The notes under the pieces: model-generated
What the model was told of the DNA's origin: nothing
Seen by the model: the letters and a program-made list of their open reading frames with translations, nothing else
Databases searched by the model: none
In this document: positions 5,690 through 44,709 of the stretch, piece by piece
Layout: the number at the start of each line of letters is the position of its first letter
Numbering within the stretch: position 1 is the first letter of the stretch
Assembly: GCF_053078305.1 (NCBI RefSeq)
Contig: NZ_CP166879.1
Length of the DNA: 64,000 nt
Reading direction: 5' to 3' (one strand)
Program-made: the position numbers and the translations under genes

Positions 5690-5878
5690 TTATCCAGCCG
5701 GTATTTCGTTATTCAGGTACAGCGATACTTTTTTTAACGGGAGGCATTCGCCAGAAATTTTTTGCTCGTCTCTTGCACGGAGGCATGATTCTTTACTGGC
5801 ATAAATTCCGGTAATCACATTCTGTGGCTCACCCGTTATAAGAAAAACAGTCATTACCAGTGCAAATGCAGAAGTCAC
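5690..5878 (-). CDS. ydfD: YdfD-like small membrane/lysis protein
   Basis: 62 aa, hydrophobic N-terminus, sits directly downstream of dicB as in Qin. Confidence 0.5.
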   Translation of the reverse strand: MTSAFALVMTVFLITGEPQNVITGIYASKESCLRARDEQKISGECLPLKKVSLYLNNEIPAG

Positions 5879-6063
5879 TGCTGCCCCCCGAAAATACCAA
5901 GTTTAAGAAGGGCAATTCTGGAGAGTATGGAATTATCATTGAGAAGATAAGGCTCATATTTTCTCATCTTAATGGCATCTTCAGTAAACTCCCGGTTACT
6001 GAGCAGAACACCAATATCAAAACACCCTTCAGACGTATTAACGTTTGGTAATAACGTTTCCAT
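5875..6063 (-). CDS. dicB: DicB-like cell division inhibitor
   Basis: 62 aa METLLPNVNTSEGCFDIGV... closely matches DicB as I recall it. Confidence 0.75.
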   Translation of the reverse strand: METLLPNVNTSEGCFDIGVLLSNREFTEDAIKMRKYEPYLLNDNSILSRIALLKLGIFGGQQ

Positions 6064-6073
6064 TATCGCGTCC

Positions 6074-6631
6074 TCAACAATGAATTTTTAGTAATTGCTC
6101 CACAGTCATATTTTTAATTGCGCTCCGGTTTACAAGAGTCCAGCCTTGTTTCTCCAGATAAAACTGGAAGGTATCCAGGGTGCAGACCATTGCGCCGTCC
6201 GGAACGGTTTCAGTGAATTTGATATTGCCGTGTTCGTCGAGACGGATAACCAGGGTACGTCCGTCCCCGTGAATCATTTTGTCGGGAGACGGGGCGTTAT
6301 TCTGGCGCAGTTCTTTCTCCATGCGATCGAACTCAGCGATGTAGGCTTCTTTAAATGCAGCGGCTTTTTTGCCGGTGAAGCCCATCACCAGGAAAACGAA
6401 GCCGTTTTTGGTGATTTGGTACATGGGGCGTTTTTCGCCTTTGGCATCGGTGTAGGTAACCGACACAAAATTGTGTTCGTTAAAATTTGATGAGCAGTCT
6501 AAATTGCGAATTTTATCCAGTACTCGCTCGTGACGCTTACCAAAGAACTCTGCAATTGCAACAGACGTAGTGACAGCGCGACCATTTTTGATGGTTACGT
6601 CAGGGTGAGAAAGGGTAGGGATAGTAGCCAT
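6074..6631 (-). CDS. rha: Rha-family phage regulatory protein
   Basis: Internal start MATIPTLSHPDV... with AGAGG RBS; the N-terminal extension of the tracked ORF overlaps a terminator hairpin and is rejected. Confidence 0.6.
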   Translation of the reverse strand: MATIPTLSHPDVTIKNGRAVTTSVAIAEFFGKRHERVLDKIRNLDCSSNFNEHNFVSVTYTDAKGEKRPMYQITKNGFVFLVMGFTGKKAAAFKEAYIAEFDRMEKELRQNNAPSPDKMIHGDGRTLVIRLDEHGNIKFTETVPDGAMVCTLDTFQFYLEKQGWTLVNRSAIKNMTVEQLLKIHC

Positions 6632-6930
6632 AATGGCAGCCTCTTGGTTGAGTATTAATAACTCACCACCAAGGTTTTCCACGACCATAAGGGTGGTGAG
6701 ACGTACAGGGGTGGAAATACCGGTCAACCAAGAATCCGGCCAGCCTTGCGGCTGCCCTGCACGCCCCACCATAATCTGAATGTGGCTGTGCATTACGCAT
6801 AAAAAAACCGCCTGAGCGCGGTTATGCGCTTGATTGAATTCCGGGTTTCCACGCCCGGCACCCGCTTTATGAGGTGCAGATGAACTATAATTCCACCCGT
6901 TCTGGTTTTCAATAGCTACATTCAACATTT
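6632..6930 (-). promoter_or_regulatory. Structured leader with intrinsic-terminator hairpin upstream of rha; homologous to satellite leader at 35684-36045
   Basis: Hairpin ACCGCgctcagGCGGT plus U7 near 6795-6825; conserved blocks shared with second copy. Confidence 0.45.
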
Positions 6931-7119: not shown

Positions 7120-7178
7120 AAAAAGGGTGGCAGAGCAGTCACGGAGTAGAACTGATGCCACCAAAGACTACACATGGG
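7120..7178 (-). ncRNA. dicF: DicF-like small RNA
   Basis: Minus strand reads ...ggtggcatcagttctactccgtgactgctctgccaccctttttaaagtgaattttgtgatg, matching recalled DicF core and downstream flank. Confidence 0.6.
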
Positions 7179-14094: not shown

Positions 14095-14385
14095 CCTGGC
14101 CTGAAGCATTAACAACGGTAGGAATTGCGATGGCGGTGGCGCTGGTGGTGTATTCGATTTGCCGCTGGGGATAAAAACGGTTTGCGGGAAAAGGAGAGTT
14201 AAGTAGAATTGCAGCGGGTGCTTGAGGCTATCTGTCTCAGGCATGAACACCAAAAGGCAGATAGAGAAAAGCCCCAGTTAACATTACGCGTCCGGCAAGA
14301 CGCTTAACATTAATCTGAGGCTCAATCTGTGAACGGCAAATCTAGGTTAGCCTCTTACGCGCCGAAAGGCAAGGAGAAGCAGGCT

Positions 14386-14541
14386 ATGAAGCAGCAAAAG
14401 GCGATGTTAGTCGCCCTGATCGTCATCTGTATTACCGTCATTGTGACGGCACTGGTAACGAGGAAAGACCTCTGCGAGGTACGAATCCGAACCGGCCAGA
14501 CGGAGGTCGCTGTCTTCACAGCTTACGAACCTGAGGAGTAA
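14386..14541 (+). CDS. hok: Hok/Gef-family type I toxin
   Basis: 51 aa MKQQKAMLVALIVICITVIVTALVTRKDLCEVRIRTGQTEVAVFTAYEPEE; upstream in-frame extension resembles mok. Confidence 0.7.
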   Translation: MKQQKAMLVALIVICITVIVTALVTRKDLCEVRIRTGQTEVAVFTAYEPEE

Positions 14542-31091: not shown

Positions 31092-31281
31092 ACTGCAGGC
31101 GCTGCGTCAGGCGCGCCTTGATTTATTAACCGGTAAACGGGTGGTGTCTGTCCAGAAAGATGGTCGCAGAATTGAATATACGGCGGCCTCTCTGGATGAG
31201 CTTAACCGTGCGATCAATGATGCTGAGTTGGTACTGGGGACAACCCGCCGTCGCCGTCGTCCGCTGGGAGTGAGGTTATGA
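31075..31281 (+). CDS. Head-tail joining protein (gpW-like)
   Basis: 68 aa; ...LTGKRVVSVQKDGRRIEYTAASL... Confidence 0.8.
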   Translation: MVTVAELQALRQARLDLLTGKRVVSVQKDGRRIEYTAASLDELNRAINDAELVLGTTRRRRRPLGVRL

Positions 31282-32150
31282 AACGAACGCCTGTCCTGAT
31301 TGATGTGAACGGCGTTCCGCTTCGGGAGAGCCTAAGCTACAACGGGGGCGGCGCAGGATTTGGCGGGCAAATGGCAGAGTGGTTGCCACCCTCGCAGAGT
31401 GCCGATGCGGCCCTGCTGCCCGCGTTGCGTCTGGGGAATGCCCGTGCAGATGATCTGGTGCGCAATAACGGAATAGCGGCCAATGCGGTGGCCCTGCATA
31501 AGGATCACATTGTCGGGCATATGTTTCTGATTAGCTACCGTCCGAACTGGCGCTGGCTGGGGATGCGGGAGACCGCGGCAAAAAGTTTTGTCGATGAGGT
31601 GGAGGCGGCCTGGTCAGAATACGCAGAAGGGATGTTTGGTGAGATCGACGTGGAAGGGAAACGCACGTTTACGGAATTTATCCGTGAAGGTGTGGGCGTT
31701 CATGCGTTTAACGGCGAAATCTTTGTGCAGCCGGTCTGGGATACGGAGAGCACGCAACTGTTTCGTACGCGTTTTAAAGCCGTGAGTCCGAAACGGGTGG
31801 ACACGCCAGGACACGGTATGGGGAACCGTTTTCTGCGGGCCGGTGTGGAGGTCGATCGATATGGTCGTGCCGTTGCGTACCATATCTGTGAGGATGATTT
31901 TCCTCACTCCGGGAGTGGACGATGGGAACGGATCCCGCGTGAACTTCTCACCGGGCGTCCGGCCATGCTGCATATTTTCGAGCCGGTGGAGGACGGGCAG
32001 ACCCGTGGGGCCAATCAGTTTTACAGCGTCATGGAACGGCTGAAGATGCTCGATTCCCTGCAGGCAACACAGCTTCAGTCGGCCATTGTTAAAGCCATTT
32101 ATGTCTATCATCTCCCCGTAGTTGTCCGCATCGTTCGCCAACTCCACTGA
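31278..32150 (+). pseudogene. Portal protein (gpB-like), N-terminal ~275 codons, interrupted near 32102
   Basis: Portal homology stops at ...QSAIVKAIY; the last 16 codons are read-through into inserted DNA. Confidence 0.75.
32091..32103 (+). repeat. Left att core AAAGCCATTTATG
   Basis: Direct repeat of 43930-43942 (one mismatch). Confidence 0.5.
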
Positions 32151-32225: not shown

Positions 32226-32285
32226 TTGTGTATTGCAATGTGTATTGCAAATTGGCGATCGGGATGGGTGTGTATTGCAAATCTC
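32226..32285 (+). repeat. Three TGTGTATTGCAA repeats (putative integrase arm sites)
   Basis: Same motif occurs twice at 43838-43862 near the other junction. Confidence 0.4.
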
Positions 32286-32298
32286 TTGAGGGCTGTTA

Positions 32299-33540
32299 AT
32301 GGCTATTGAAAACAAACTCAGTGACAAACTGTTAAAGAGTCTTGTCGGAAAACGGCAGGACAAACAAAAAACAATAGCGGATGGGCGCGGGTTGTCTGTG
32401 CGTGTAAGCATGGTTGGGGGGATCAGCTTTGTTTTTTACTATCGTCTTGGTGGCAGGGAATCCCCTCCGGTATGGCTTACACTTGGGCGCTATCCTGATA
32501 TGTCTCTTGCAACAGCCAGGCGCATGCGTGATCAGTGCCGTGAGTGGCTGGCTGAAAATCTGGACCCCCGCAGGCAAATAAAACTTGCCGCCGAAAAAAC
32601 CATGCAACCAGTGACCGTAAGGGATGCGCTGTTTTACTGGTACGACAATCACGCCACAACAGCCAGAAAAGAGCATGAATATTTAATAAAACGATTTGAA
32701 AAGCATATCTTCCCCTATATCGGTGATATGGCTATAGAACAGTGCAAATTACACACATGGCTTGCCGTCTTTGACAGGATCAAAAAAAATGCGCCTGTTA
32801 TGTCTGGTGCAATTTTTCTTGATATCAAACAGGCGTTGCGTTTTTGTCGCGTCAGGCAATACATCGCGTGCGATCCCTTTGGCGATATTAACGTAAGTTA
32901 TGTCGGGCGCTCATCCGGTATAAGGGATCGCGTTCTTAATATCAATGAAACAGCGGATGTATGGTCTTATGCTTACGGTAATAATTTGCTGACACTGTCA
33001 TCAATACATAACAGAAGAATAATGGTTATCTGCCTGGTGTTTGGTTGCCGTCAGCAGGAGGCGAGGTTATCCACATGGGACGAATGGGATTTAAAAAACT
33101 GGGTATGGACAGTCCCAAAAGAGCACAGCAAAAACAAGGAGGCCATAGTAAGGCCTGTTCCTGACGGCATAAAACAATGGCTCGTTAATCTTTACGCAGA
33201 AACAAAAAATCGCGGTTATGTTGTCGGTTGTGCTTTGCAAAGGGCGACAATAACAGGGGCTGCAAACAGAATATGCAGGCGTCTTGGTCATGATATTAAT
33301 GGCTTGTGGTGCATACATGATTTCAGGCGCACATTTTCCACTGCGCTTAATGATATGGGGGCGGATCCTTATATTGTCGAACTTCTTTTAGGTCATAAAG
33401 TGAAAGGGGTTGCCGGTGTTTACAATAAAAGCAGGCATATAAAGAAAAAACTTGAGGTGCTTAATATGTGGGTTAATTACCTTAATACGATAGCAGGATT
33501 TAACAACAACGTTATCGAGCTTAATAAAGAGGTGGTGTGA
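32299..33540 (+). CDS. int: P4-type tyrosine integrase
   Basis: 413 aa; N-terminal LSDKLLKSL...GRGLSVRV arm-binding domain; C-terminal ...LLGHK...VYNKS. Confidence 0.85.
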   Translation: MAIENKLSDKLLKSLVGKRQDKQKTIADGRGLSVRVSMVGGISFVFYYRLGGRESPPVWLTLGRYPDMSLATARRMRDQCREWLAENLDPRRQIKLAAEKTMQPVTVRDALFYWYDNHATTARKEHEYLIKRFEKHIFPYIGDMAIEQCKLHTWLAVFDRIKKNAPVMSGAIFLDIKQALRFCRVRQYIACDPFGDINVSYVGRSSGIRDRVLNINETADVWSYAYGNNLLTLSSIHNRRIMVICLVFGCRQQEARLSTWDEWDLKNWVWTVPKEHSKNKEAIVRPVPDGIKQWLVNLYAETKNRGYVVGCALQRATITGAANRICRRLGHDINGLWCIHDFRRTFSTALNDMGADPYIVELLLGHKVKGVAGVYNKSRHIKKKLEVLNMWVNYLNTIAGFNNNVIELNKEVV

Positions 33541-33541
33541 T

Positions 33542-33799
33542 ATGGCAATTTATTCTCTTGTTGATGAAAACGATTTGCGCACAATGAAGGACATTGATCG
33601 GTTCATTCGTGAAAAAGAGTGCATAGCACTTACCACGCTGGCAAACTCAACACGCTGGAAAATGGAGCAGGCAGGTAAATTCCCGCGACGTATCAAGATC
33701 GGTGAACGTGCGGCAGGGTATCGACTTTCAGAGGTTCAGGCATGGATCCGTGGTGAGTGGCATCCTGGATGGAAACCTGGAAAAACAAAACAGCAATAA
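33542..33799 (+). CDS. alpA: AlpA-family regulator / excisionase
   Basis: 85 aa; directly after int. Confidence 0.7.
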   Translation: MAIYSLVDENDLRTMKDIDRFIREKECIALTTLANSTRWKMEQAGKFPRRIKIGERAAGYRLSEVQAWIRGEWHPGWKPGKTKQQ

Positions 33800-33853
33800 C
33801 CAGTAAATAACGCCCCTCATCAAGAGGGGTTTTTGTCTATAGGGTAAAACGCG

Positions 33854-34432
33854 ATGAATAAAAATATTGCCGTGACGGGCAAGGGGTACGCTCGTCCAGT
33901 GAAAAAATTCTGTGATATTCGTGATCTTGTCGTTCTGCGCTTTGATGGTGTGAGCGTTCGCGTGGTGTATGTGAACGGCGATCCGTGGTTTGTTGCCGTT
34001 GACGTGTGCGCTGCGCTGGAAATTGTTGATCACAAGGTTGCGTTACGCCGTCTCGATGATGATGAAAAGGGGGAGTGTTTAATACCCACCCCAGGTGGAA
34101 ATCAAACAATGCGAACGGTATGCGAGTCAGGGTTCTACAAACTAATCGCCAGAAGTCGGAAAGCTGTTACTCCTGGCACGTTCGCCCGTCGTTTCAGTAA
34201 CTGGGTATTCAGAAATGTGATACCAGGTATCAGAAAAACGGGGGCTTATGGTATCCCGTGGGGGGCATTACAGGATTTTTCCCGCCGTAAAGAGCAATAT
34301 CAAATAAGTGCCAGCGAGAAGGGGAGGGAGCTACAGGCATGTAAGCGCAAAAAACGTGAACTGGAGGAAGAAGAAAAAAGGCTGATACGTGAATATCAGC
34401 CTGAGTTTTACTTTGGTGAGCGTATTCAGTAA
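33854..34432 (+). CDS. Bro-N-domain protein (antirepressor-like)
   Basis: ...VVYVNGDPWFVAVDVCAALEI... Bro-N signature. Confidence 0.65.
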   Translation: MNKNIAVTGKGYARPVKKFCDIRDLVVLRFDGVSVRVVYVNGDPWFVAVDVCAALEIVDHKVALRRLDDDEKGECLIPTPGGNQTMRTVCESGFYKLIARSRKAVTPGTFARRFSNWVFRNVIPGIRKTGAYGIPWGALQDFSRRKEQYQISASEKGRELQACKRKKRELEEEEKRLIREYQPEFYFGERIQ

Positions 34433-34895
34433 CCACACGCGGTGCTGATTATACGGTACATCGTGTTAACCGAGAAGCTACCCACCAGCAAGGCAAAATC
34501 TTCTGCTAAAAAATGACATATGGCCAGTCGTCCGGAAAGCATGAAATTTTACAAAAATGGAAAATGAAGATTTTTATTGTGCTGGTGGGTAAAAACAAAA
34601 AGCGCCCCGTTGCCGGAGCGCCCTTGTGAACAATTAACCTGCTGCGAAAAAATTGGATCAGTGCAGGGAAATTATATCAACTGTGTGAAGAAGCGCCACA
34701 ATTGCCAGTTTAGCTTTGCGGCGAACGCGTCAATAAAGAATATTCTTTCTTTAAATTCTGTTTGTGTATTTTTTCGTAGTTTTTCGTAGTTTTTCGTAAG
34801 GAGAAAGAGCGGCGCGTATGCACCGCTAAGGAGTTTATTTTCATGACTTATGCAGCTTTCAATCTTAGCACCGCCGTAGCTGGTGGACAAGGCTA

Positions 34896-35123
34896 TCAGC
34901 CAGGCGGTCGGTTTTTAGTGGCTTTTAACCGCCGTGGGTATTTCTCGACAAAATCTTCAAGGGCAAATTTTTCTGGTGGCACTAAGCGCGGCGCTGGTGG
35001 TGGTATTTTTGTTCTGGTTAGTTCTTCCTCAAGTCTGGCGCAGGCTTCTAACTGCCTTTGCCGGATGATTTCATCATCTTGCGTTTGCGTGTCTTGTATT
35101 GGTGATAGTGTGTTGTTGGTCAT
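34896..35123 (-). CDS. Hypothetical protein
   Basis: 75 aa ORF downstream of putative repressor; weak. Confidence 0.3.
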   Translation of the reverse strand: MTNNTLSPIQDTQTQDDEIIRQRQLEACARLEEELTRTKIPPPAPRLVPPEKFALEDFVEKYPRRLKATKNRPPG

Positions 35124-35180
35124 GATACTGCCCTGTAAAGCAATGCGCCGGAGTACCTCACGCCACGGCGCTGATAGTGA

Positions 35181-35501
35181 TTATTCTGATTCTTGGGTCT
35201 TGCGACGCTGGAGTTCTTCGCGTGCAACGGTGACAAGTTGCCCGATTTCTTCCGCTGCTTTGATGCCGATTTGTTCGACCTTAGCCAGAGCATCCAGTGA
35301 AGACACAAGGGGATTTTCTCCGCTGCCTTCTGCCTGGCGGCGGGCGATTTCACCGCGCATGGCGGTTACTATGAATCCGGCGTTGCTTTCACCGTCCAGT
35401 TTTACGGATTCCATGCCTTCAATAACATCATGCGGGATCCGAGCTGTCAGTGATTGTGATTTTGCGTTTTTTGAACCTGTAGCCATCTGTAATCCTCTCA
35501 A
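35181..35501 (-). CDS. Putative satellite regulator/repressor
   Basis: 106 aa, divergent from operator-like region. Confidence 0.4.
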   Translation of the reverse strand: MRGLQMATGSKNAKSQSLTARIPHDVIEGMESVKLDGESNAGFIVTAMRGEIARRQAEGSGENPLVSSLDALAKVEQIGIKAAEEIGQLVTVAREELQRRKTQESE

Positions 35502-35683
35502 TGAAAGTGTAAGACAATATACACATAAAAAGTCTTACATAAAAGCATTGACATGTAAGCCACCTATAAATAAAGTTACTTACACCTTGTTAATGCAAGG
35601 TGCAGAAACGACGAAACCCGGCAGTGCGCTAACACTAACCGGGCTTCTAACCACCAACGATAGAAAGCGTATCGAGGTAGCTA
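35502..35683. promoter_or_regulatory. Divergent control region with palindromic TGTAAGAC/GTCTTACA operators
   Basis: tgtaagacaatatacacataaaaagtcttaca and ttgacatgtaagcc...agttacttacac. Confidence 0.4.
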
Positions 35684-36045
35684 TGAGAAATCATACCACA
35701 CACCCGCAAGGGCGGGACTCGCACAACCTGAATAAATACATCTGGCGTTTTCTGGCCCGAAAAAACCAGTTGATCGCCAGTGTCGAAAATAGCTATGATT
35801 CCCGCGCACCTCATAAAACGGGTGCCGGGATTGGCGTCCTGGGCAAAACTGAAGCGCATAACACGCGCCCCGCGTGTTTTTTTGTGCCGCATAGTCACAC
35901 CTTATCAATGGTGGGCTGTACGGGGGCGGAGCAATCCGCGCCGGTTTCTTCAGTGTCCGGTTACGCCAACCCTGTACAGTCCGCCACCAGCGAAATTGGC
36001 GTTTCCGGTGGCGGTTATCTTAACCACACTGAGGAGGCTGCCAAC
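35684..36045 (+). promoter_or_regulatory. Structured leader with terminator hairpin; homologue of rha leader at 6632-6930
   Basis: Conserved blocks plus hairpin ACACGCGccccGCGTGT followed by U7. Confidence 0.45.
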
Positions 36046-36237
36046 ATGGCTACTATCCCTACCCTTGTACATTCTCAAACCGCCTTTCTCTGGCGCTTTA
36101 TCATCTTTGGCGCGTCAGACCATCAAATCATCCACGTCACCGCCTGGACGGAACGCGAAGCGCGTAGCCGTTGCCCGTCCGGTTGTGTTGCTGTATTCGC
36201 CGCCCGTATTCGTCAGGAGGTGTGCCATGTGCAATAA
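36046..36237 (+). CDS. Small ORF sharing its first seven codons (MATIPTL) with rha
   Basis: GAGGAGG RBS; 63 aa; N-terminal nucleotides identical to rha start. Confidence 0.3.
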   Translation: MATIPTLVHSQTAFLWRFIIFGASDHQIIHVTAWTEREARSRCPSGCVAVFAARIRQEVCHVQ

Positions 36238-36484
36238 AACCACACCGGACGCAGCCGCCGCGCTCACTACACTGATGCACGCGCTGATTGATATTTCTGT
36301 TATTGCTGACAGGGCGCATAAGCACGCCACCAGTGAAACAGAATATGCCGGGGCTTTCGTTCCTCATTCGCTGGCGGTTATGCAACTTAGTGCTGATATG
36401 GCGCTGAATGAGGCCAAAGCTATCCTGATTTCTGATTGTGAAAATGGGGGGGGGTTATGCGTGATGATCGTTTTAATGCCCTGA
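36227..36484 (+). CDS. Hypothetical protein
   Basis: 85 aa, CAGGAGG RBS. Confidence 0.35.
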   Translation: MCNKTTPDAAAALTTLMHALIDISVIADRAHKHATSETEYAGAFVPHSLAVMQLSADMALNEAKAILISDCENGGGLCVMIVLMP

Positions 36485-36678
36485 AACAGGAGTTTGATGG
36501 TGCGCCTGATGATGCAGGTGATGCGCTTTCGTCAATATCCGAACTGATAAGAGTGGCCTTTTTCTTACTTGGCACGAAAGAATATAAATCAACTGGAATA
36601 GACGTACTGAATATTACTGCTGATTATGCGGAATATATGGCAGAAGTGGATTTAAGAAAGATAACGGACAGGGGGTAA
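36457..36678 (+). CDS. Hypothetical protein
   Basis: 73 aa, coupled. Confidence 0.35.
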   Translation: MRDDRFNALKQEFDGAPDDAGDALSSISELIRVAFFLLGTKEYKSTGIDVLNITADYAEYMAEVDLRKITDRG

Positions 36679-36679
36679 T

Positions 36680-36913
36680 ATGCGTGATATTTACCACGAA
36701 ACAATAGACCGCGCATTTAGTGCCCTTGCTTACGCTGAAGGTATGTACGAAATATTGCAAATGTGTCTGGAAACATTTGGCGATAATGAGCGTGATGTAA
36801 AGAAGGCGCGGATTATTAAATCACTGATAACTCTCCTTGAACCTGTAATAACAGAGTTGCAGGAAATAGACTTATTGCACGACAGATATAACGAACAGCA
36901 CACCGGAGAATAA
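36680..36913 (+). CDS. Hypothetical protein
   Basis: 77 aa, coupled. Confidence 0.4.
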   Translation: MRDIYHETIDRAFSALAYAEGMYEILQMCLETFGDNERDVKKARIIKSLITLLEPVITELQEIDLLHDRYNEQHTGE

Positions 36914-36918
36914 AAATA

Positions 36919-37218
36919 ATGAAACTTAAATATCCTGGCTTAACTGCCAGTGGCAACACTCACCCTAAATTTACGCGCGGTGATATTTACCGCGACCAGT
37001 ACGGCGGCACGGTAATGATTAAGGGCGTGGCGGGACGGTGCGTAACTTACCGCCGTGAAGGCTACGAATATGATTGCGTGATGCCTGTTTATCAGTTCCG
37101 GCGTGATTTTTCTCTGGTACAGACCGCGCCGCATAACGTGCCCACCAGCAACGCCAGGGCACGGGCAAACATCCAGAAGCTGAAAACCATGATTAACGGA
37201 TTCAGGGGTAAAAAATGA
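36919..37218 (+). CDS. Hypothetical protein
   Basis: 99 aa, stop overlaps helicase start. Confidence 0.4.
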   Translation: MKLKYPGLTASGNTHPKFTRGDIYRDQYGGTVMIKGVAGRCVTYRREGYEYDCVMPVYQFRRDFSLVQTAPHNVPTSNARARANIQKLKTMINGFRGKK

Positions 37219-38624
37219 AACTGGCACCGAACGTAAAACGATTACCGAAAGATAAATACACCGAAGCGGTTATTTTTGCGGGTATTGATGCTCACTCATT
37301 CGCAGAGCATTACATCATTGCACAGGCCAAAAAAGCAGGCGATCCAGTCCCTCCCGTTTATCTGGGGCGTTATCAGTTAAGCGAACTGGATAACCTCCAG
37401 ATTGTTGATGATGGGCGATACAGGGCGACGGTGATACGCGCCGGAAATATTGAAGAGCCGCAGCTGTTAACCATCGCCACGAAACTGGCGAGCGCCGGAG
37501 TCCAGGAGGCGCGGCTACTTTCTGAAAATTTCGAATTGCTGGAGGAATGGAGCGACCAGCTTCCACGGCTTAGGGAGGCATGGGAACGCGGGGAAAGCCT
37601 GGTCATGAAAAAAATTCCCCAGCGAAAAACCACGCTACCGATGAGCGTTGGATCTACCGGATACGACACACAGCTTGATTACGTGGTAAAGGGGATTATT
37701 CCGGCATCGTCGCTTTGCAGCATATACGGGGCGAGCGGTTCCTATAAATCATTCCTTGCCGGATCGTGGGCGTGTCACGTTTCCACGGGCCGCCAGTGGG
37801 GAGGCCGCAGGGTGGCGCATGGCGCTGTTCTCTATGTGGTTGGTGAAGGCGGTATCGGCGTTCCGCGTCGTGTAAAAGCCTGGGAGGTTGTGCACGGTGA
37901 GCAGGTGAAAAATCTGTATCTGGTAAACCGTCCCATCTTTCCGGCTGTCCCGCTTGATGTTGATGAACTGGTTATTGCTGCCAGTCAGGTGGAGAGGGAA
38001 ACGGGTAAACCTGTTCGCATGATTATTCTGGACACGCTGGCGCGTTGCTTTGGCGGCAATGATGAAAATGACTCCCGCGACATGGGGGCATTTATCCGTG
38101 GTTGTGACGAGCTTAAACGGCGCACAGGGGCTACGGTGCTGGTGGTTCACCATTCCGGCAAGGATGAAACAAAGGGGGCGCGTGGTTCCAGTGCATTTCG
38201 TGCATCACTGGACGCTGAATACCGGATACGCAGGGAGGACGCAGGAAGCGAAGCGCTGGTTATCTCATGCACCAAAATGAAGGACGCGGAGGAACTCAAA
38301 GAGGCTGCCTATGATTTGCGGGTGGTGGAGCTTTTTACCGACGCTGACGGGGAGTTAATTACGTCGCTGGTGGTGGTGGATAAGCCGCGCCCTCCCGTTG
38401 AACTGGAGCGCATCGAGGAGGCAGGCAACAAGACGGAAAACCATACCGCGCTATGGGGGTGCATCCGTTCACGCACACAGAACGGCGACAAGTGCACGAT
38501 CCCGCTGTTACGTGACGATATGAAAAAGCTGGGGTATGACACAAAACACCTTAAACGATGGTTAGCCAAACTGGAAAAAGACGACGTGATCTACATTGAC
38601 GGTGATGATGTAGGACCACTGTAA
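37215..38624 (+). CDS. Replicative ATPase/helicase (RecA/DnaB-like NTPase domain)
   Basis: 469 aa; Walker A GASGSYKS, Walker B ILDTL, ...VVHHSGKDETKGARGSSA... Confidence 0.75.
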   Translation: MKLAPNVKRLPKDKYTEAVIFAGIDAHSFAEHYIIAQAKKAGDPVPPVYLGRYQLSELDNLQIVDDGRYRATVIRAGNIEEPQLLTIATKLASAGVQEARLLSENFELLEEWSDQLPRLREAWERGESLVMKKIPQRKTTLPMSVGSTGYDTQLDYVVKGIIPASSLCSIYGASGSYKSFLAGSWACHVSTGRQWGGRRVAHGAVLYVVGEGGIGVPRRVKAWEVVHGEQVKNLYLVNRPIFPAVPLDVDELVIAASQVERETGKPVRMIILDTLARCFGGNDENDSRDMGAFIRGCDELKRRTGATVLVVHHSGKDETKGARGSSAFRASLDAEYRIRREDAGSEALVISCTKMKDAEELKEAAYDLRVVELFTDADGELITSLVVVDKPRPPVELERIEEAGNKTENHTALWGCIRSRTQNGDKCTIPLLRDDMKKLGYDTKHLKRWLAKLEKDDVIYIDGDDVGPL

Positions 38625-38826
38625 AAAGTGGGCATTAAAAGTGGGAAAGGTGGGCGATTTAACGTAATTTTAACAAAATCACCCACTTTCCCACGTGTAT
38701 ATATCCCAAAAAGTGGGCACTAAAAAAATACCTATGAAACAAGATGATATAAATCCCAAACTTCCCACGTTGGACGAAGTGGGAAAACGTAAAAAGTGGG
38801 CGAAAAAAGTGGGTAGAGGTGGGCGA
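38625..38826 (+). repeat. Iteron array (AAGTGGG-type repeats), putative satellite ori
   Basis: About nine AAGTGGG / CCCACTT copies immediately downstream of helicase gene. Confidence 0.5.
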
Positions 38827-39078
38827 ATGACTCAAAAACACAGAGACAGAACAGAGCCAAAATATAAAGCGTTAGACATGACAGAGCACGCTTTAAAGGT
38901 GGCAATCAGGGTAATAGACCGCCACACGCGGGAAGGATACGCGAAGGAACATCCCGACCTGATAAGCGCATTCATGACCACAGCGGCGGCAAACTTTGCC
39001 ACGCTGACAGAACGGGAGATAGCCGAAGCGGAACAGGTAACAACCATCAACGTTAAAACCGGAGAGGTGGAATCATGA
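38827..39078 (+). CDS. Hypothetical protein
   Basis: 83 aa from MTQKHRDR; upstream part of tracked ORF lies on iterons and is rejected. Confidence 0.35.
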   Translation: MTQKHRDRTEPKYKALDMTEHALKVAIRVIDRHTREGYAKEHPDLISAFMTTAAANFATLTEREIAEAEQVTTINVKTGEVES

Positions 39079-39485
39079 CAGCACAGATAGCCGCTTACGG
39101 GCGGCTGGTGGACGACCCGCAGGTAAAACAAACCAGCAAGGGCACACCGATGACGCTGGCGCGTATGGCGGTATCTCTGCCATGCAGCCAGGCACAGGAC
39201 GGGCAGGCTACGTTATGGCTATCAGTGATGGCATTTGGTAAGCAGGCCGACTTCCTGGCTAAACATCAAAAAGGCGATGTTGCCAGCGTATCCGGCACGA
39301 TGCAGGTAAGCCAGTGGACCAGACAGAACGGGGAAACGCGGCAGGGTTATCAGGTTATTGCAGACAGTGTAATCAGTGCCCGTGCTGCCCGTCCTGGCGG
39401 GAGCAGACGTACAACCACAGGCACACAGGGTAATCAGCCACCAGCGGGAGGCGATGACCCTTACGGTGACGGTATTCCGTTCTGA
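39075..39485 (+). CDS. SSB-like single-strand DNA-binding protein
   Basis: OB-fold-like N-terminus, Gly/Pro-rich tail ending DDPYGDGIPF. Confidence 0.55.
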   Translation: MTAQIAAYGRLVDDPQVKQTSKGTPMTLARMAVSLPCSQAQDGQATLWLSVMAFGKQADFLAKHQKGDVASVSGTMQVSQWTRQNGETRQGYQVIADSVISARAARPGGSRRTTTGTQGNQPPAGGDDPYGDGIPF

Positions 39486-39495
39486 GGGGGTGACG

Positions 39496-39768
39496 ATGGT
39501 ACATGACCGCATAGCGGAGGAACTCGAGGCAAAAGGCTTTTACCGGAGGGCGGCGGCGCGATGGGGTGAAGTTATGCAGCTGGTGGAGACAGACAAGGAA
39601 CGGCATCAGGTTACGATGCGACGGCTGGAATGTTCCAGGAAGGCACAGAGGCCACCGGAGCCGCCGGATAACTTCGGAGACCTGAAAAAAGCAGTAGATC
39701 GCACTTATGCCGAAATGGGTATGGATGGTGTAAGCGATGAAATATGGCGTAATTACCCAGACAGCTAA
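39496..39768 (+). CDS. Hypothetical protein
   Basis: 90 aa, GAGGGGG RBS. Confidence 0.35.
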   Translation: MVHDRIAEELEAKGFYRRAAARWGEVMQLVETDKERHQVTMRRLECSRKAQRPPEPPDNFGDLKKAVDRTYAEMGMDGVSDEIWRNYPDS

Positions 39769-39774
39769 TCAACA

Positions 39775-39846
39775 GCCGGAGAAATCCGGCTTTTTTGTAC
39801 CCAAAAAAAGCCCGATAAGTACAGGAGGCATCTTATCGGGCTTTTG
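39775..39846 (+). terminator. Two tandem intrinsic terminators ending the replication operon
   Basis: GCCGGAGAAATCCGGC+U6 and GCCCGATAAG...CTTATCGGGC+U4. Confidence 0.5.
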
Positions 39847-40007
39847 CATATGAGGTTTTTTTGGTGCACTGACACACATGATCGGGGTAATCATTTCATA
39901 ATTTGCAACACAACTCAACATCATTGCACAAAATGCAATCCTGATTATAATCAGAGCTGGATGAACATCCAGTTCTGATTTTTTAAGTCAAAGAGGAATT
40001 TCTTACT

Positions 40008-40214
40008 ATGGCTGAAGAGAAAAAAGGCGGTGTTTCGGTGTACATAAGCCCCGAAATCGTGGAGGTGCTCAAGCAGCGCCACAAAAAAAACTATGAGGCT
40101 GGCGTAGCGGCTGGACTGGATCCGCTGATGACGCCGGAGCCGTCGATAGGTTCACTTGTGCGCTCTTATTTACTTGCGGCGCTTGGGATGCATAAAAATT
40201 ATGGTGGTGAATAA
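40008..40214 (+). CDS. Hypothetical protein preceding capsid gene
   Basis: 68 aa, AGAGGAA RBS. Confidence 0.4.
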   Translation: MAEEKKGGVSVYISPEIVEVLKQRHKKNYEAGVAAGLDPLMTPEPSIGSLVRSYLLAALGMHKNYGGE

Positions 40215-41269: not shown

Positions 41270-41280
41270 CGGGGGATTCT

Positions 41281-41616
41281 ATGGACACTCCATACATTGA
41301 GTTATTTGCAGGCAGTCAGCAGGTATCCACGACGCTGGTACATTTTGCCGCTGATGCTGGCGTTATTCAGGAATTTACCCCGCTGATGCTGGCGGACAAT
41401 GGCGAGTTTAAGCCGTGGGATGGTCAGGAATCTGGCAAGGCTGTTTATCTGACCTCGTACCCCGTGGACACGTCAAAGCAGAAATCAGCACAGTGTTACA
41501 AGACGGGGATATTTAATATCGCCGCCGTAAACTGGCCTGAGAGCGCCGACACTGACGCGAAAAAATGCGCCGCCTTTGCGGGTTCTGGCGTATCCGTTCA
41601 GCCGCTGGCGCGATAA
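41281..41616 (+). CDS. Head decoration protein paralog (gpD-like)
   Basis: 111 aa; TPLMLADNG..KPWDGQ and YKTGIF motifs shared with prophage D. Confidence 0.7.
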   Translation: MDTPYIELFAGSQQVSTTLVHFAADAGVIQEFTPLMLADNGEFKPWDGQESGKAVYLTSYPVDTSKQKSAQCYKTGIFNIAAVNWPESADTDAKKCAAFAGSGVSVQPLAR

Positions 41617-41628
41617 GCAGGGGAAACG

Positions 41629-42042
41629 ATGGCAACGAATGAAAGCATCATGGCGCTACCGCTGGCGAGTAAATTTAAAGCAGAAGCGCGGGCAATGGCT
41701 GACAGAGGTTTATCAACCTACGAGGCCGTATATCAACTCAACAAACTGGAAGAGCAGGACAAGCCGCGCGCTGATGCGATTATGGCGCTTCATGAACATA
41801 ACGACTATCAGCCGCTGTTACGTGCAATGGCAAACGTGCCATGTATTAGCGTCGATAATGCTCGTGAAATCCTGAACATGACCATAGAGCAGGAGCGCCC
41901 AAAGGTTGCGCCGGAGCTTACCGCAGCCTTTGAAAACTTTATGGACATGCACAGCCCGAAAGCCGTATCACCCGGCATGGCATACGACGGCAGAAACCAG
42001 GGCGATGAAGGCGACGTCGATCGCATACTGAAAACCATCTGA
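41629..42042 (+). CDS. Scaffold-like protein (Nu3-like C-terminus)
   Basis: C-terminus ...AAFENFMDMHSPKAV... parallels prophage C/Nu3 tail ...ALFEHFMANHSPAAV... Confidence 0.5.
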   Translation: MATNESIMALPLASKFKAEARAMADRGLSTYEAVYQLNKLEEQDKPRADAIMALHEHNDYQPLLRAMANVPCISVDNAREILNMTIEQERPKVAPELTAAFENFMDMHSPKAVSPGMAYDGRNQGDEGDVDRILKTI

Positions 42043-43329: not shown

Positions 43330-43929
43330 CTTGCTGATATTCCCGATAACGCAAAATTGCGCTCTGTCCTAACCCGTTGATATTTTCGGGAACAGCCAAC
43401 GGCTGAGGCCGGAACAACGATTATCTTTCAGATAGTCAGAGCTACGAAATTTTCGTAGTTTAATTACTCGCCAGTTTATCGTTAACTCGTTGATATTTTC
43501 GGTAACCTCAATTTGAGGAGATCGGAAACATAACCCTTCACATTCTGAATGGTTATAATGACCACTCAGACCATCAAGGCAACCATAACGAACATCGTTA
43601 CGGTTGGAGCTTTTACCCCACTGGGGGGAAGGTGCACATCTGGATCATCATTACCGTGATCAAGGGTATGTAAAACCCACCAGCCTGATTAACTGTTAAC
43701 CGGAAAAAAGCCAGGTAGCCAATCTCGATATGGGGATCCCCATATCGACATTAACGCCCCCTAGAACTGCGCATATCTGCATATAAAAACATCCACCAGC
43801 TTTATGACGGATGCCGCTCATCTGATAAATAATCGTGTATTGCAATGTGTATTGCGACTCCTTTAAACGATAGGTTTGAGCATTCGTAATGTACTGTTTT
43901 TAAATTTTATTTTTTCCTGTCTTTTCATA

Positions 43930-43942
43930 AAAGCCATGTATG
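43930..43942 (+). repeat. Right att core AAAGCCATGTATG
   Basis: Direct repeat of 32091-32103. Confidence 0.5.
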
Positions 43943-44709
43943 CAGCGACGATTGAAAGTGAACTTGATACCGAAAAGGCCTTTGAATATATCGCCGGTGC
44001 GCCGCAGGGGCAGAAGGATAATCCGCTTATTAATATTCTGGATAAGTTCTCCACCTGGTATGACACGAATATCGTGACGCTGGGCGGTGTCAAAATTCCG
44101 CACCTTTTCCCCGGTGATGATCTGAAACTTCAGACCGCGCAGGATTCAGACAATGGATTTTCGGCGCTTGAACAGGCGCTGCTGCGGTATATCGCCGCCG
44201 GTCTTGGCGTTTCCTACGAACAGTTGTCCCGTGATTACTCGAAGGTCAGTTATTCAAGTGCCCGCGCCTCCGCCAATGAGTCGTGGCGCTATTTTATGGG
44301 ACGACGAAAATTTATTGCAGCCCGGCTGGCCACGCAGATGTTTTCCTGCTGGCTGGAAGAGGCACTTCTTCGGGGGATTATCCGTCCGCCACGGGCACGT
44401 TTTGATTTTTATCAGGCGCGTTCAGCCTGGTCGCGGGCAGAGTGGATTGGCGCAGGAAGAATGGCCATTGACGGGCTCAAGGAGGTCCAGGAATCAGTGA
44501 TGCGCATTGAGGCCGGACTGAGCACGTATGAGAAAGAGCTGGCGCTGATGGGTGAGGATTATCAGGACATTTTCCGCCAGCAGGTCAGGGAATCCGCAGA
44601 GCGGGAAAAAGCCGGACTCTCACGTCCGGTGTGGATAGCGCAGGCGTATCAGCAGCAGATAGCAGAGAGCCGCAGGCCGGAAGAGGAGACAACACCACGT
44701 GAGACGTAA
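43930..44709 (+). pseudogene. Portal protein (gpB-like), C-terminal ~256 codons
   Basis: Resumes at ...AATIESELDTEKAFEYIAGAPQGQ...; the tracked ORF start at 43876 lies in inserted DNA. Confidence 0.75.

What the first reader, a model, noticed from the sequence alone, without database searches (positions are those of the whole stretch)
6632..6930. Conserved ~300-nt structured leader shared between prophage rha and the satellite (second copy 35684-36045), with covarying terminator hairpin
The minus-strand region upstream of rha and the plus-strand region upstream of a small satellite ORF share blocks (GCACCTCATAAARCGGGTGCCGGG, AAGCGCATAAC, a hairpin followed by U7, a ribosome-binding region and the first seven codons MATIPTL). 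The hairpin stems differ in sequence but stay paired (ACCGC/GCGGT versus ACACGCG/CGCGTGT), and a 1-nt indel breaks any common reading frame. That favours RNA structure over coding, for example an attenuator or antisense-target leader, possibly analogous to C4/IsrK-type control of antirepressor operons.
Basis: seen in the sequence. Interest (0 to 1): 0.7.

Follow-up and report, generated by a model that had tools for sequence, protein, structure and literature searches.

The report
Known IsrK–C4 phage RNA immunity switch
Both copies of the leader are the well-known phage immunity module in which a small antisense RNA (C4/CI), cut from the leader, blocks the ribosome site of the next gene, so the finding is real but already described, including in prophages and satellites of this type.

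Summary
The shared blocks are real and far beyond chance. Each copy is a tandem of two curated Rfam families: isrK (RF01394; P4 "seqA") at 6877..6801(-) and 35806..35882(+), and C4 antisense RNA (RF01695; P4 "CI") at 6776..6689(-) and 35904..35991(+). All four match full length above the gathering score.

In 61 distinct homologous leaders, two unpaired C4 segments (a', b') covary with copies inside IsrK (a1, b1). They also covary with copies after C4 (a2, b2), and b2 covers the Shine-Dalgarno of rha or the Icd-like gene.

The two window copies have different a/b sequences. Cognate b'/b2 duplexes are -14.6 and -15.0 kcal/mol; cross duplexes are -7.1 and -3.7. They should therefore be heteroimmune, with no crosstalk.

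One frame (Pfam Phage_ASH; P4 eta, Gifsy-1 orf45) has no stop codon in any of the 61 homologs and usually starts upstream of the isrK promoter.

The P1/P7, P4 and Gifsy-1 literature, and a 2023 paper on helper-embedded PICIs, already describe this architecture. The satellite here is such an embedded PICI, splitting the helper's portal gene.

Verdict: already known, low interest.

The parts
6884..6912 (-). Prophage isrK promoter: -35 TTGAAA, 17-nt spacer, -10 TATAGT; the predicted start is G at 6877
   Evidence: Consensus scan, 10 of 12 matches. The Rfam isrK model begins at 6877.
6801..6877 (-). Prophage IsrK/seqA-type RNA (77 nt). It has a 5' hairpin at 6877..6858, a second hairpin with a1 (GUGGAAA, 6852..6846) in its loop, single-stranded b1 (UCAAUCAAG, 6837..6829), and an intrinsic terminator at 6823..6806 followed by U7.
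   Evidence: RF01394, 68.4 bits against a gathering score of 50, model positions 1-77 of 77. Fold; terminator. a1-a' and b1-b' covary.
6689..6776 (-). Prophage C4/CI-type antisense RNA. It has a 17-bp closing stem and two hairpins. The b' loop AUUCUUGGUUGA is at 6735..6724 and the a' junction AUUUCCAC at 6718..6711. The AUG at 6772 opens the Ash/orf45 frame.
   Evidence: RF01695, 79.8 bits against 45. MFE -47.3 kcal/mol, z = -4.97. Stem covariation.
6640..6682 (-). Prophage target sites: a2 GUGGAAA (6682..6676) and b2 UCAACCAAGAGG (6651..6640), which includes the Shine-Dalgarno AAGAGG of rha
   Evidence: Duplex b'/b2 -14.6 kcal/mol and a'/a2 -8.3 kcal/mol. Cognate versus non-cognate test; b'-b2 covariation.
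6074..6631 (-). rha (Rha-family phage regulatory protein, 185 aa, starting MATIPTL). The Ash-frame ORF beginning at ATG 6928 runs into it in phase.
   Evidence: TIGR02681, 113 bits against a cut-off of 46. ORF 6074..6928.
35548..35576 (+). Satellite upstream promoter-like site (TTGACA, 17 nt, TAAAGT). It lies before the Ash-frame start ATG at 35683 (SD GAGG) and is a candidate late or bypass promoter like P4 PLL.
   Evidence: Consensus scan, 10 of 12 matches. ORF frame. The function is inferred, not shown.
35770..35799 (+). Satellite isrK promoter: -35 TTGATC, 18-nt spacer, -10 TATGAT; predicted start at 35806
   Evidence: The Rfam isrK model begins at 35806.
35806..35882 (+). Satellite IsrK/seqA-type RNA: a1 UUGGCGU (35831..35837), b1 AAACUGAAG (35846..35854), terminator 35860..35878 followed by U7
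   Evidence: RF01394, 66.0 bits against 50, model positions 1-77 of 77. Folds and terminator.
35904..35991 (+). Satellite C4/CI-type antisense RNA: b' loop UUUCUUCAGUGU (35945..35956), a' UACGCCAA (35962..35969)
   Evidence: RF01695, 77.6 bits against 45. MFE -46.9 kcal/mol, z = -5.18.
35996..36037 (+). Satellite target sites: a2 UUGGCGU (35996..36002) and b2 ACACUGAGGAGG (36026..36037), which covers the Shine-Dalgarno of the Icd-like gene
   Evidence: Duplex b'/b2 -15.0 kcal/mol and a'/a2 -10.0 kcal/mol. Columns covary.
36046..36237 (+). Icd-like small protein gene (63 aa, starting MATIPTLVHSQ), the first gene of the satellite's replication-side operon
   Evidence: NF033153, 58.9 bits against a cut-off of 25. 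RefSeq homologs are annotated 'host cell division inhibitor Icd-like protein'.

Best explanation
Each copy is an IsrK-C4 (P4: seqA-CI) RNA immunity module embedded in an Ash/Eta-type reading frame.

Immune mode (steps inferred from P1/P7 and P4 unless marked as shown):
- A constitutive promoter inside that frame starts transcription at the IsrK 5' end. Most transcripts stop at the IsrK terminator.
- Read-through transcripts contain the 88-nt C4 fold, which in P1 and P4 is cut out as a stable small RNA (RNase P makes its 5' end).
- Two unpaired C4 segments, a' and b', pair with a2 and b2 just downstream on the mRNA. The complementarity is shown here.
- b2 includes the Shine-Dalgarno of rha in the prophage and of the Icd-like gene in the satellite. 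Pairing would block translation, and the untranslated message would be cut short by Rho-type polarity. That would keep rha and the dicB-like gene, or the satellite replication genes, silent.
- The same C4 segments pair with a1 and b1 inside IsrK (complementarity shown). This would reinforce termination at the IsrK terminator, as with P4 t1. It would also let free short IsrK act as a decoy that relieves repression, as in Gifsy-1.

Bypass mode (inferred from P4 eta):
- When transcription comes from an upstream promoter, the leader is translated from an upstream AUG (6928 or 35683) in the Ash frame. The candidates are the prophage early operon and the satellite site at 35548.
- Ribosomes would melt the terminator and the target sites, so expression escapes C4.

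Relation between the two copies:
- Their a/b sequences differ, so they are predicted to be orthogonal (heteroimmune) rather than a helper-satellite communication channel.
For: - Rfam hits: isrK 68.4 and 66.0 bits (gathering 50); C4 79.8 and 77.6 bits (gathering 45). All are full length, in the same order and spacing in both copies.
- C4 folds: -47.3 and -46.9 kcal/mol, z = -5.0 and -5.2.
- Covariation in 61 distinct homologs from 120 IMG/VR loci: 98.5% of cells paired, covariation score 0.416 against 0.129 shuffled (0 of 500), and 36-43% paired when partners are slid. The a1-a' helix is 99.8% paired with 6 of 7 pairs changed on both sides. The b1-b' helix is 96.7% paired with 8 of 9. The C4 closing stem has 10 of 17 and hairpin 1 has 5 of 5.
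- b'-b2 over the RBS: 91.5% paired, 8 of 11 pairs changed on both sides, score 0.651 against 0.162 (0 of 500).
- Register-free test: 13 a' types and 30 b' types. Cognate a'/a2 gives 7-8 Watson-Crick bp in 49 of 49 cases; non-cognate reaches 7 in 1 of 2128.
- Within the window, cognate b'/b2 is -14.6 and -15.0 kcal/mol; cross pairs are -7.1 and -3.7.
- The only stringent two-site targets in 64 kb are in the cognate leaders, apart from a few G-U-rich coincidences.
- Promoters and terminators are predicted at the expected places. A hairpin plus a 6-8 U run is predicted in nearly all homologs, with several different stems.
- The full leader's MFE pairs a1/b1 with a'/b' in cis, as in Gifsy-1 'structure A' (PMC4825925).
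- The Ash frame has 0 stops in 61 of 61 homologs, against 86 and 115 in the other frames. It has an in-frame ATG upstream of the IsrK start in 60 of 61 and a Pfam Phage_ASH hit at E = 3e-14.
- Downstream genes: Rha family and Icd-like.
- Literature: IsrK = seqA and C4 = CI, present in lambdoid prophages and P4-likes (PMC3632133). The eta/internal-promoter/CI/seqA model and hits in GN-PICIs and HE-PICIs are in PMC10111431. The P1 c4-icd-ant operon is in PMC8198154.
Against: - Nothing here shows the RNAs exist. Processing of C4, termination at the IsrK hairpin, Rho polarity and translation of the Ash frame are all inferred from P1, P4 and Gifsy-1.
- IsrK alone does not fold better than shuffles (z = -0.7 and -0.9). 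Its support is the covariance model and the covariation.
- Terminator covariation rests on few independent stem types, and the alignment is mis-registered there (89.8% paired).
- All homologs were collected with the invariant IsrK 5' hairpin as bait. That hairpin's conservation is therefore uninformative, and the sample is biased to enterobacterial prophages.
- In the two window copies the Ash-frame ORF has no stop before rha or icd. The Gifsy-1 orf45 coupling model therefore cannot apply literally.
- Satellite a' also has a -9.9 kcal/mol duplex with the prophage IsrK segment. It lies partly in a stem and in another register, but slight cross-reaction is not excluded.
Confidence: 0.85

Rival explanations
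1. The region is simply protein-coding. It would be the N-terminal 'Ash' domain of long Ash-Rha and Ash-Icd proteins, and the apparent RNA structure would be incidental.
For: - ORFs 6928..6074(-) and 34843..36237(+) read through the leader.
- That frame has zero stops in 61 of 61 homologs.
- It has an in-frame upstream ATG in 60 of 61.
- Pfam PF10554 matches at E = 3e-14.
- RefSeq annotates 'ash family protein' there.
Against: - Compensatory double changes keep 98.5% of the predicted pairs. These include long-range a1/a'/a2 and b1/b'/b2 sets that no protein constraint explains.
- The conserved residues of the translation coincide with the conserved RNA stems.
- A promoter and an intrinsic terminator sit inside the ORF.
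- Both Rfam models match full length.
- The evidence fits a dual-use sequence, as described for P4 eta (PMC10111431), not a purely coding one.
Confidence: 0.05
2. The leader is a purely cis-acting attenuator. It would switch between alternative folds (a1b1:a'b' versus the C4 fold and a2b2 pairing) with no diffusible RNA, so it would confer no immunity in trans.
For: - The MFE of the whole leader pairs a1/b1 with a'/b' in cis in both copies.
- Gifsy-1 mutants map to exactly this helix (PMC4825925, read).
Against: - The isolated C4 fold is very stable and well supported by covariation.
- In P1/P7 and P4 the homologous RNA acts in trans and defines immunity specificity (cited in PMC8198154, PMC6906374, PMC3632133).
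- The diversification into 13 x 30 specificity types is what selection on trans specificity would produce.
- Cis and trans action are not mutually exclusive.
Confidence: 0.07
3. The shared leader is a helper-satellite communication device. Helper C4 or IsrK would regulate the satellite operon, or the reverse, allowing the satellite to sense helper induction.
For: - Both elements lie in one composite: the satellite is embedded in the helper's portal gene.
- They share identical 5' hairpins and RBS/start blocks.
- Barquist et al. speculated that prophage IsrK-C4 systems may relate to satellite conflict (PMC3632133).
Against: - The specificity segments differ at both sites: a' is AUUUCCAC versus UACGCCAA, and b' is AUUCUUGGUUGA versus UUUCUUCAGUGU.
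- Cross b'/b2 duplexes are -7.1 and -3.7 kcal/mol, against -14.6 and -15.0 for cognate pairs.
- No stringent two-site target for either C4 lies in the other element.
- The shared start-codon block shows synonymous changes among homologs, so it is explained by peptide conservation.
Confidence: 0.03

Closest known systems
Satellite phage P4 immunity: seqA - terminator t1 - cI (CI RNA, seqB) - seqC inside the eta/kil reading frame, transcribed from the internal promoter PLE
   Same: - Same order of parts: an internal constitutive promoter, a seqA/IsrK segment with an intrinsic terminator, a C4-family RNA, then a second target copy.
- All of this lies inside an Ash/Eta-type ORF that starts upstream of the promoter (model summarised in PMC10111431 and PMC3632133).
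- In the satellite the module sits ahead of the replication genes (RepA-type helicase at 37215..38624).
   Different: - The satellite here is not P4-like. It is a PICI-type island with its own major head protein and small terminase, embedded in a lambdoid portal gene.
- Here b2 lies directly on the Shine-Dalgarno of an Icd-like gene.
- Termination sites equivalent to P4 t4 and timm were not examined.
Phage P1/P7 immI operon (c4 - icd - ant1/2) with C4 antisense RNA, Rfam RF01695
   Same: - The C4 fold, with two unpaired segments complementary to sites that cover the RBS of the next gene.
- An Icd-like protein as that gene in the satellite.
- An antirepressor-network gene under control in the prophage.
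- Heteroimmunity through small loop/target differences (PMC8198154, PMC6906374).
- P1-like loci were recovered in the same alignment (L012, L017, L043, L112).
   Different: - No ant1/2 follows icd in the satellite.
- The prophage has no separate icd. Rha itself carries the shared MATIPTL start.
- The P1-like leaders have an extra 38-41-nt insert with a TATAAT between IsrK and C4.
Salmonella Gifsy-1 isrK - orf45 (STnc1160) - anrP locus, Rfam RF01394
   Same: - A lambdoid prophage context: a 77-nt IsrK with its own promoter and a leaky terminator.
- A C4-like processed RNA downstream.
- An ORF opening at about +106/107 in the C4 5' strand, and an antirepressor-type gene after it.
- In the full transcript the IsrK middle part pairs with the C4 region in cis (PMC4825925).
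   Different: - In Gifsy-1, orf45 has its own stop and is translationally coupled to anrP. Here the same frame runs into rha without a stop.
- The antQ toxicity circuit of Gifsy-1 was not looked for.
- I could not align the Gifsy-1 sequence itself.
Helper-embedded PICIs (HE-PICIs) of Enterobacteriaceae (Mageeney et al. 2023, PMC10111431)
   Same: - An 11.6-kb island with the zones Integration (int, AlpA), Bro (Bro-N antirepressor, Ash), Replication and Late.
- It is inserted in a helper late gene, the lambda B-type portal gene.
- That paper reports Rfam C4 and isrK hits in HE-PICI Bro zones.
   Different: None of substance. I did not check whether this exact att site is one of the portal sites they list.

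Membership tests
Rfam RF01695 C4 antisense RNA (P1/P7 C4, P4 CI) | Covariance-model score at or above the curated gathering score, full-length match | tested here: met
   79.8 bits (6776..6689, minus) and 77.6 bits (35904..35991, plus) against a gathering score of 45; model positions 1-87 of 87
Rfam RF01695 C4 antisense RNA (P1/P7 C4, P4 CI) | Long closing stem enclosing two hairpins, supported by compensatory changes | tested here: met
   The MFE equals the Rfam structure, z about -5. The closing stem has 10 of 17 pairs, and hairpin 1 has 5 of 5, with double changes; 99.9-100% paired. Hairpin 2 is invariant and so uninformative.
Rfam RF01695 C4 antisense RNA (P1/P7 C4, P4 CI) | Unpaired segments complementary to two sites in its own mRNA, one covering the RBS of the next gene | tested here: met
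   a'/a2 and b'/b2 complementarity in both copies. Cognate versus non-cognate test. b'-b2 covariation score 0.651 against 0.162 shuffled.
Rfam RF01695 C4 antisense RNA (P1/P7 C4, P4 CI) | Stable small RNA released from a longer transcript by RNase P (5' end) and acting in trans | not testable with these tools
   Needs Northern blots, RNA-seq or an RNase P mutant. Inferred from my knowledge of P1 and P4.
Rfam RF01394 isrK / P4 seqA | Covariance-model score at or above the gathering score, full-length match | tested here: met
   68.4 and 66.0 bits against 50; model positions 1-77 of 77
Rfam RF01394 isrK / P4 seqA | Own promoter and an intrinsic terminator giving a ~77-nt RNA | tested here: met
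   Sequence-level prediction only. Sigma-70-like sites end 7 nt before the model start, and hairpins followed by T7 are present. A hairpin plus a 6-8 U run is predicted in nearly all homologs.
Rfam RF01394 isrK / P4 seqA | Middle part complementary to the downstream C4/CI RNA | tested here: met
   a1-a' is 99.8% paired with 6 of 7 pairs covarying. b1-b' is 96.7% paired with 8 of 9 covarying.
Rfam RF01394 isrK / P4 seqA | Hfq binding and trans-activation of the read-through mRNA | not testable with these tools
   Shown experimentally only for Gifsy-1 (PMC4825925)
P1/P7 immI operon (c4-icd-ant1/2) | An icd gene immediately after c4, with its RBS in the b2 site | tested here: met
   Met for the satellite only: the Icd-like gene (NF033153, 58.9 bits) starts at 36046 and b2 lies at 36026..36037. 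The prophage copy has rha in that position and shares only the first seven codons.
P1/P7 immI operon (c4-icd-ant1/2) | ant1/ant2 antirepressor genes overlapping or following icd | tested here: not met
   In the satellite, icd is followed by small unknown ORFs, DUF4222 and a RepA-type helicase. In the prophage the gene is Rha family, not Ant. Neither copy is therefore filed as an immI operon.
P4-type immunity inside an eta/Ash ORF | Immunity RNAs lie inside an Ash/Eta-type ORF that starts upstream of the internal promoter | tested here: met
   Pfam Phage_ASH at E = 3e-14 on the translated leader. The frame is stop-free in 61 of 61 homologs. An upstream in-frame ATG is present in 60 of 61; in the window these are at 6928 and 35683.
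P4-type immunity inside an eta/Ash ORF | The element is a P4-like satellite (alpha primase, sid, psu, delta, epsilon) | tested here: not met
   The satellite encodes a RepA-type helicase, SSB, a major head protein and a small terminase. No P4 capsid-size or transactivation genes were seen among the ORFs scanned. It works like P4 immunity but is not a P4-like element.
Gifsy-1 isrK-orf45-anrP | A short ORF opening in the C4 5' strand, with its own stop, translationally coupled to the antirepressor gene | tested here: not met
   The AUG at 6772 and the open frame are present. However, the frame continues into rha without a stop, and likewise into icd in the satellite.
Helper-embedded PICI | An int-AlpA-Bro-replication-late island flanked by direct repeats inside a helper prophage late gene | tested here: met
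   21-bp direct repeats at 32228 and 43835. The portal gene is split into 31278..32150 and 43876..44709. Gene content.

The most novel reading that the evidence does not exclude
The IsrK-C4 module may be a combinatorial two-site RNA 'lock' that diversifies by recombination. In only 61 leaders I found 13 a-types and 30 b-types assorting into 39 combinations. A helper prophage and the satellite embedded in it may be selected to carry orthogonal combinations, so that neither silences the other. A systematic map of specificity types across helper-satellite pairs could then predict which elements are mutually immune. As far as I could find, the literature records P1/P7 heteroimmunity and the presence of the module in PICIs, but not this breadth or the pairing rule.
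Probability: 0.25. Interest if true: 0.4.

Novelty: already known. Interest (0 to 1): 0.15.

Why it matters
It matters little as a discovery. The module, its parts and its presence in lambdoid prophages, P4-like satellites and helper-embedded PICIs are all published, and Rfam detects both RNAs automatically.

Its practical value is for annotation:
- 'ash family protein' calls, and over-long Rha or Icd ORFs, in E. coli genomes mark an RNA immunity switch. They should be annotated with isrK and C4.
- The a/b loop sequences can be read directly as immunity-specificity labels. Here they predict that the helper prophage and its embedded satellite do not cross-repress.

Tried and rejected
1. Crosstalk between helper and satellite through the shared leader. 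Rejected because the a/b segments differ and cross duplexes are weak. No stringent two-site target for either C4 lies in the other element. Earlier, looser scans gave only noise.

2. Rejected because one frame is stop-free in all homologs.

3. A purely coding leader. Rejected on covariation.

4. A first Pfam scan used the wrong frame (35780-36046) and found nothing. The correct frame hit Phage_ASH.

5. NCBIfam has no model for the Ash-frame translations.

6. Column-based counting of a'-a2 is only partly usable. a2 sits in three different registers relative to the flanking anchors, so 11 prophage-type rows appear 'unpaired'. The register-free test covers this.

7. Terminator covariation in the big alignment is blurred by mis-registration of the satellite and P1-like rows (89.8% paired). 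Per-sequence folding was used instead.

8. I tried to read the primary P4 paper (PMC176756) but it is not held. P4 details therefore rest on summaries in PMC10111431, PMC3632133 and PMC4825925, and on my own memory.

Full report

Yes, for the sequence similarity.
- The minus strand upstream of rha and the plus strand upstream of the small satellite ORF align at 74% mean column identity.
- The 24-nt block GCACCTCATAAARCGGGTGCCGGG and the 33-nt RBS/start block GAGGCTGCCANNATGGCTACTATCCCTACCCTT each occur exactly twice in the 64-kb window. Shuffles give no matches.
- Both copies have a G+C-rich hairpin followed by T7, with different but fully paired stems.

One statement is wrong. The 1-nt indel in the terminator is compensated about 26 nt later by a 4-nt indel, and the only later indel is 3 nt. 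The distance from the conserved 5' G to the start codon is 246 nt in the prophage and 240 nt in the satellite. Long ORFs (6928..6074 minus, 34843..36237 plus) read through both leaders in phase with the downstream gene.

**2. What is it?**

A scan of the whole window against Rfam at gathering thresholds resolves each copy into two curated families in tandem (alignments):

| Family | Prophage | Satellite | Gathering score |
|---|---|---|---|
| isrK (RF01394) | 6877..6801 (-), 68.4 bits | 35806..35882 (+), 66.0 bits | 50 |
| C4 antisense RNA (RF01695) | 6776..6689 (-), 79.8 bits | 35904..35991 (+), 77.6 bits | 45 |

- All four matches are full length.
IsrK alone is not better than shuffles, z = -0.7 and -0.9.
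- Sigma-70-like promoters end 7 nt before each IsrK start: TTGAAA-17-TATAGT at 6912..6884, and TTGATC-18-TATGAT at 35770..35799.
- The downstream genes are a Rha-family regulator (TIGR02681, 113 bits) and an Icd-like protein (NF033153, 58.9 bits).

**3. Anatomy and test with homologs**

By eye, two unpaired C4 segments are complementary to two sites after C4. The segments are the 12-nt loop of hairpin 2 (b') and the 8-nt junction after it (a'). The sites are a2 and b2, and b2 includes the Shine-Dalgarno. The same segments are also complementary to copies inside IsrK: a1 in the loop of its second hairpin, and b1 in the single-stranded stretch before the terminator.

To test this I collected 120 IMG/VR loci with the IsrK 5' hairpin, reduced them to 61 distinct leaders and aligned them.

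Counts on the named structure:
- 98.5% of cells are paired, and the covariation score is 0.416 against 0.129 shuffled (0 of 500 shuffles as high). Pairing falls to 36-43% when partners are slid by 1-3 columns.
- a1-a': 99.8% paired, 6 of 7 pairs changed on both sides.
- b1-b': 96.7% paired, 8 of 9 pairs changed on both sides.
- C4 closing stem: 10 of 17 pairs changed on both sides. Hairpin 1: 5 of 5.

For the RBS site I used the 29 leaders that share the GAGGCTGCC anchor. There, b'-b2 is 91.5% paired with 8 of 11 pairs changed on both sides, and the score is 0.651 against 0.162 (0 of 500).

A register-free comparison avoids alignment problems:
- There are 13 a' types and 30 b' types in 39 combinations.
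- Cognate a'/a2 gives 7-8 contiguous Watson-Crick pairs in 49 of 49 cases. Non-cognate pairs reach 7 in 1 of 2128.
- Cognate b'/b2 averages 8.0 contiguous pairs, against 4.3 for non-cognate.

A terminator hairpin followed by 6-8 U is predicted in nearly all homologs, with several different stems.

**4. The two window copies are orthogonal**

| | a' | b' |
|---|---|---|
| Prophage | AUUUCCAC | AUUCUUGGUUGA |
| Satellite | UACGCCAA | UUUCUUCAGUGU |

- Cognate b'/b2 duplexes are -14.6 and -15.0 kcal/mol. Cross duplexes are -7.1 and -3.7 kcal/mol.
- In the whole window, stringent two-site targets are found only in the cognate leaders, plus a few G-U-dependent coincidences.
- The shared leader therefore reflects common descent of a module, not helper-satellite signalling.

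**5. Coding as well as RNA**

- The frame opened by the AUG in the C4 5' strand (AUGGUGGGG, at 6772 and 35908) has 0 stop codons before the downstream start in 61 of 61 distinct homologs. The other two frames carry 86 and 115 stops, at 12 and 10 alignment columns.
- The same frame is open back to the IsrK 5' end in every sequence.
- It has an in-frame ATG upstream of the IsrK start in 60 of 61 loci, against 26 and 9 for the other frames, across several unrelated upstream contexts. In the window these ATGs are at 6928 and 35683.
- Its translation matches Pfam Phage_ASH (E = 3e-14). RefSeq genomes annotate 'ash family protein' over the homologous stretch.
- The first seven codons shared by rha and icd (MATIPTL) show synonymous changes among homologs: ACT/ACG/ACA, CCT/CCA, CTT/CTC/TTA. 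That block is therefore conserved as peptide.
- The RNA-versus-coding dichotomy does not hold. The sequence is used both ways.

**6. Mechanism**

Shown here: the two RNA folds, the four sets of complementary sites, their position on the RBS, the internal promoter and terminator motifs, and the open frame with an upstream start.

Inferred from P1/P7, P4 and Gifsy-1:
- Transcripts from the internal promoter mostly end at the IsrK terminator.
- Read-through yields C4, which is processed to a stable RNA.
- C4 pairs with a2/b2, blocks translation of rha or icd, and provokes premature termination of the operon.
- Pairing with a1/b1 strengthens termination at the IsrK hairpin (P4 t1).
- Free IsrK can titrate C4 and derepress. 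This is a possibility raised in the Gifsy-1 paper, which itself attributes activation to IsrK binding the read-through mRNA.
- Transcription from an upstream promoter allows translation of the whole Ash frame, which overrides termination (P4 eta).
- The MFE of the full leader pairs a1b1 with a'b' in cis in both copies. This matches the inactive 'structure A' mapped genetically in Gifsy-1 (PMC4825925).

**7. Comparison with what is known**

- The Gifsy-1 paper states that IsrK is a structural homolog of P4 seqA and that a processed RNA (STnc1160) lies downstream.
- Barquist et al. 2013 equate IsrK with seqA and C4 with CI. They note the 'IsrK-C4 immunity system' in P4-like elements and in lambdoid prophages.
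- Mageeney et al. 2023 describe the P4 eta model: an internal constitutive promoter, CI/seqA termination, and eta translation from a late promoter preventing termination. They list Phage_ASH among the Bro-network domains. They report that the Rfam C4 and isrK models hit GN-PICIs and helper-embedded PICIs.
- The P1 c4-icd-ant operon and P1/P7 heteroimmunity are summarised in PMC8198154 and PMC6906374.

Membership conclusions:
- Both copies are members of Rfam isrK and C4.
- They work like P4 immunity.
- Neither is an immI operon, because ant1/2 is absent.
- The satellite is not P4-like.
- The Gifsy-1 orf45 coupling does not apply literally, because the frame has no stop before rha or icd.

**8. 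Context**

- The satellite is an 11.6-kb island between 21-bp direct repeats at 32228 and 43835.
- It splits the helper prophage's portal gene into 31278..32150 and 43876..44709.
- It carries int, AlpA, a Bro-N antirepressor, YlcI/YnfO, Ash-Icd, a RepA-type helicase, SSB, a major head protein and a small terminase.
- It is therefore a helper-embedded PICI. Portal-gene sites are already reported for this class.
- The prophage copy sits between DicF (7176..7125) and a dicB-like ORF (6063..5875).

**9. Verdict**

The finding is real and correctly sensed as C4/IsrK-like, but it is an already described system that standard Rfam annotation identifies. Interest is low.

The only possibly new angle is the breadth and independent assortment of the a/b specificity types, and the question of whether co-resident helper-satellite pairs are selected to be orthogonal.

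Noticed in passing
window 32228-43855 (repeats at 32228-32248 and 43835-43855); portal gene halves at 31278-32150 and 43876-44709: The 'satellite' is an 11.6-kb island flanked by a 21-bp direct repeat (GTGTATTGCAATGTGTATTGC) that splits the lambdoid helper's portal gene. It is therefore a helper-embedded PICI in the same prophage that carries the rha leader. Its gene content is int, AlpA, a Bro-N antirepressor, YlcI/YnfO, Ash-Icd, a RepA helicase, SSB, a major head protein and TerS.
   Followed up: yes
window about 35794-36042 (+) and 6928-6632 (-): Pfam Phage_ASH (PF10554) matches the translation of the satellite isrK-C4 leader, and RefSeq calls homologous stretches 'ash family protein' (often as a pseudogene). 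The conserved residues coincide with RNA stems, so this protein family is largely a shadow of two RNA genes inside a translated frame. The prophage translation (6928-6632) was scanned only against NCBIfam, without a hit.
   Followed up: partly
window 7176-5875 (-): Gene order on the minus strand is DicF sRNA (7176..7125), isrK, C4, rha (6631..6074), then a dicB-like 62-aa ORF (6063..5875). The rha immunity module thus sits between the two parts of a dicF-dicB division-inhibitor operon. The C4-controlled message may extend into dicB, a parallel to icd in P1.
   Followed up: no
IMG/VR loci, alignment A2 (61 leaders): The a and b specificity segments assort independently: 13 a' types and 30 b' types give 39 combinations. 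For example, a' AUUUCCAC occurs with 7 different b' loops. This suggests recombination between the two sites.
   Followed up: partly
L117:5193-5492 (+): A natural chimera. Its a1 (AUUCUCACC) does not match its own a' and a2 (GUGGAAA type). It is the single cognate a1-a' failure in the set.
   Followed up: no
L056:8754-9100 (+): Two tandem IsrK copies 238 nt apart with no recognisable C4 behind either. They may be orphan decoys or a rearranged locus.
   Followed up: no
L012, L017, L043, L112 (P1-like leaders), alignment A2 columns 103-140: The P1-like versions carry a 38-41-nt insert containing TATAAT between the IsrK terminator and C4. This may be a second promoter dedicated to C4.
   Followed up: no
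window 6829-6806 (-) and homologs: The conserved block AAGCGCAUAACCGCGC can form a GCGC/GCGC hairpin that overlaps the 5' arm of the terminator, and RNAfold prefers it in a few homologs. It lies next to b1 and could be an anti-terminator that C4 pairing disfavors.
   Followed up: no
window 38623-38808, 39775-39796 and 42049-42070: Three copies of AAAAAGTGGGCATTAAAA spaced 83-85 nt apart lie just after the RepA helicase gene; they are candidate origin iterons. Separately, an identical 22-nt terminator-like hairpin GCCGGAGAAATCCGGCTTTTTT occurs twice in the satellite.
   Followed up: no
window 14216-14391, 19758-20006 and 20837-21049: Other Rfam hits in the prophage: sok antitoxin RNA (109.7 bits), three tRNA genes, and STnc100 (140.9 bits). 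These are typical features of a lambdoid or Stx-type late region.
   Followed up: no
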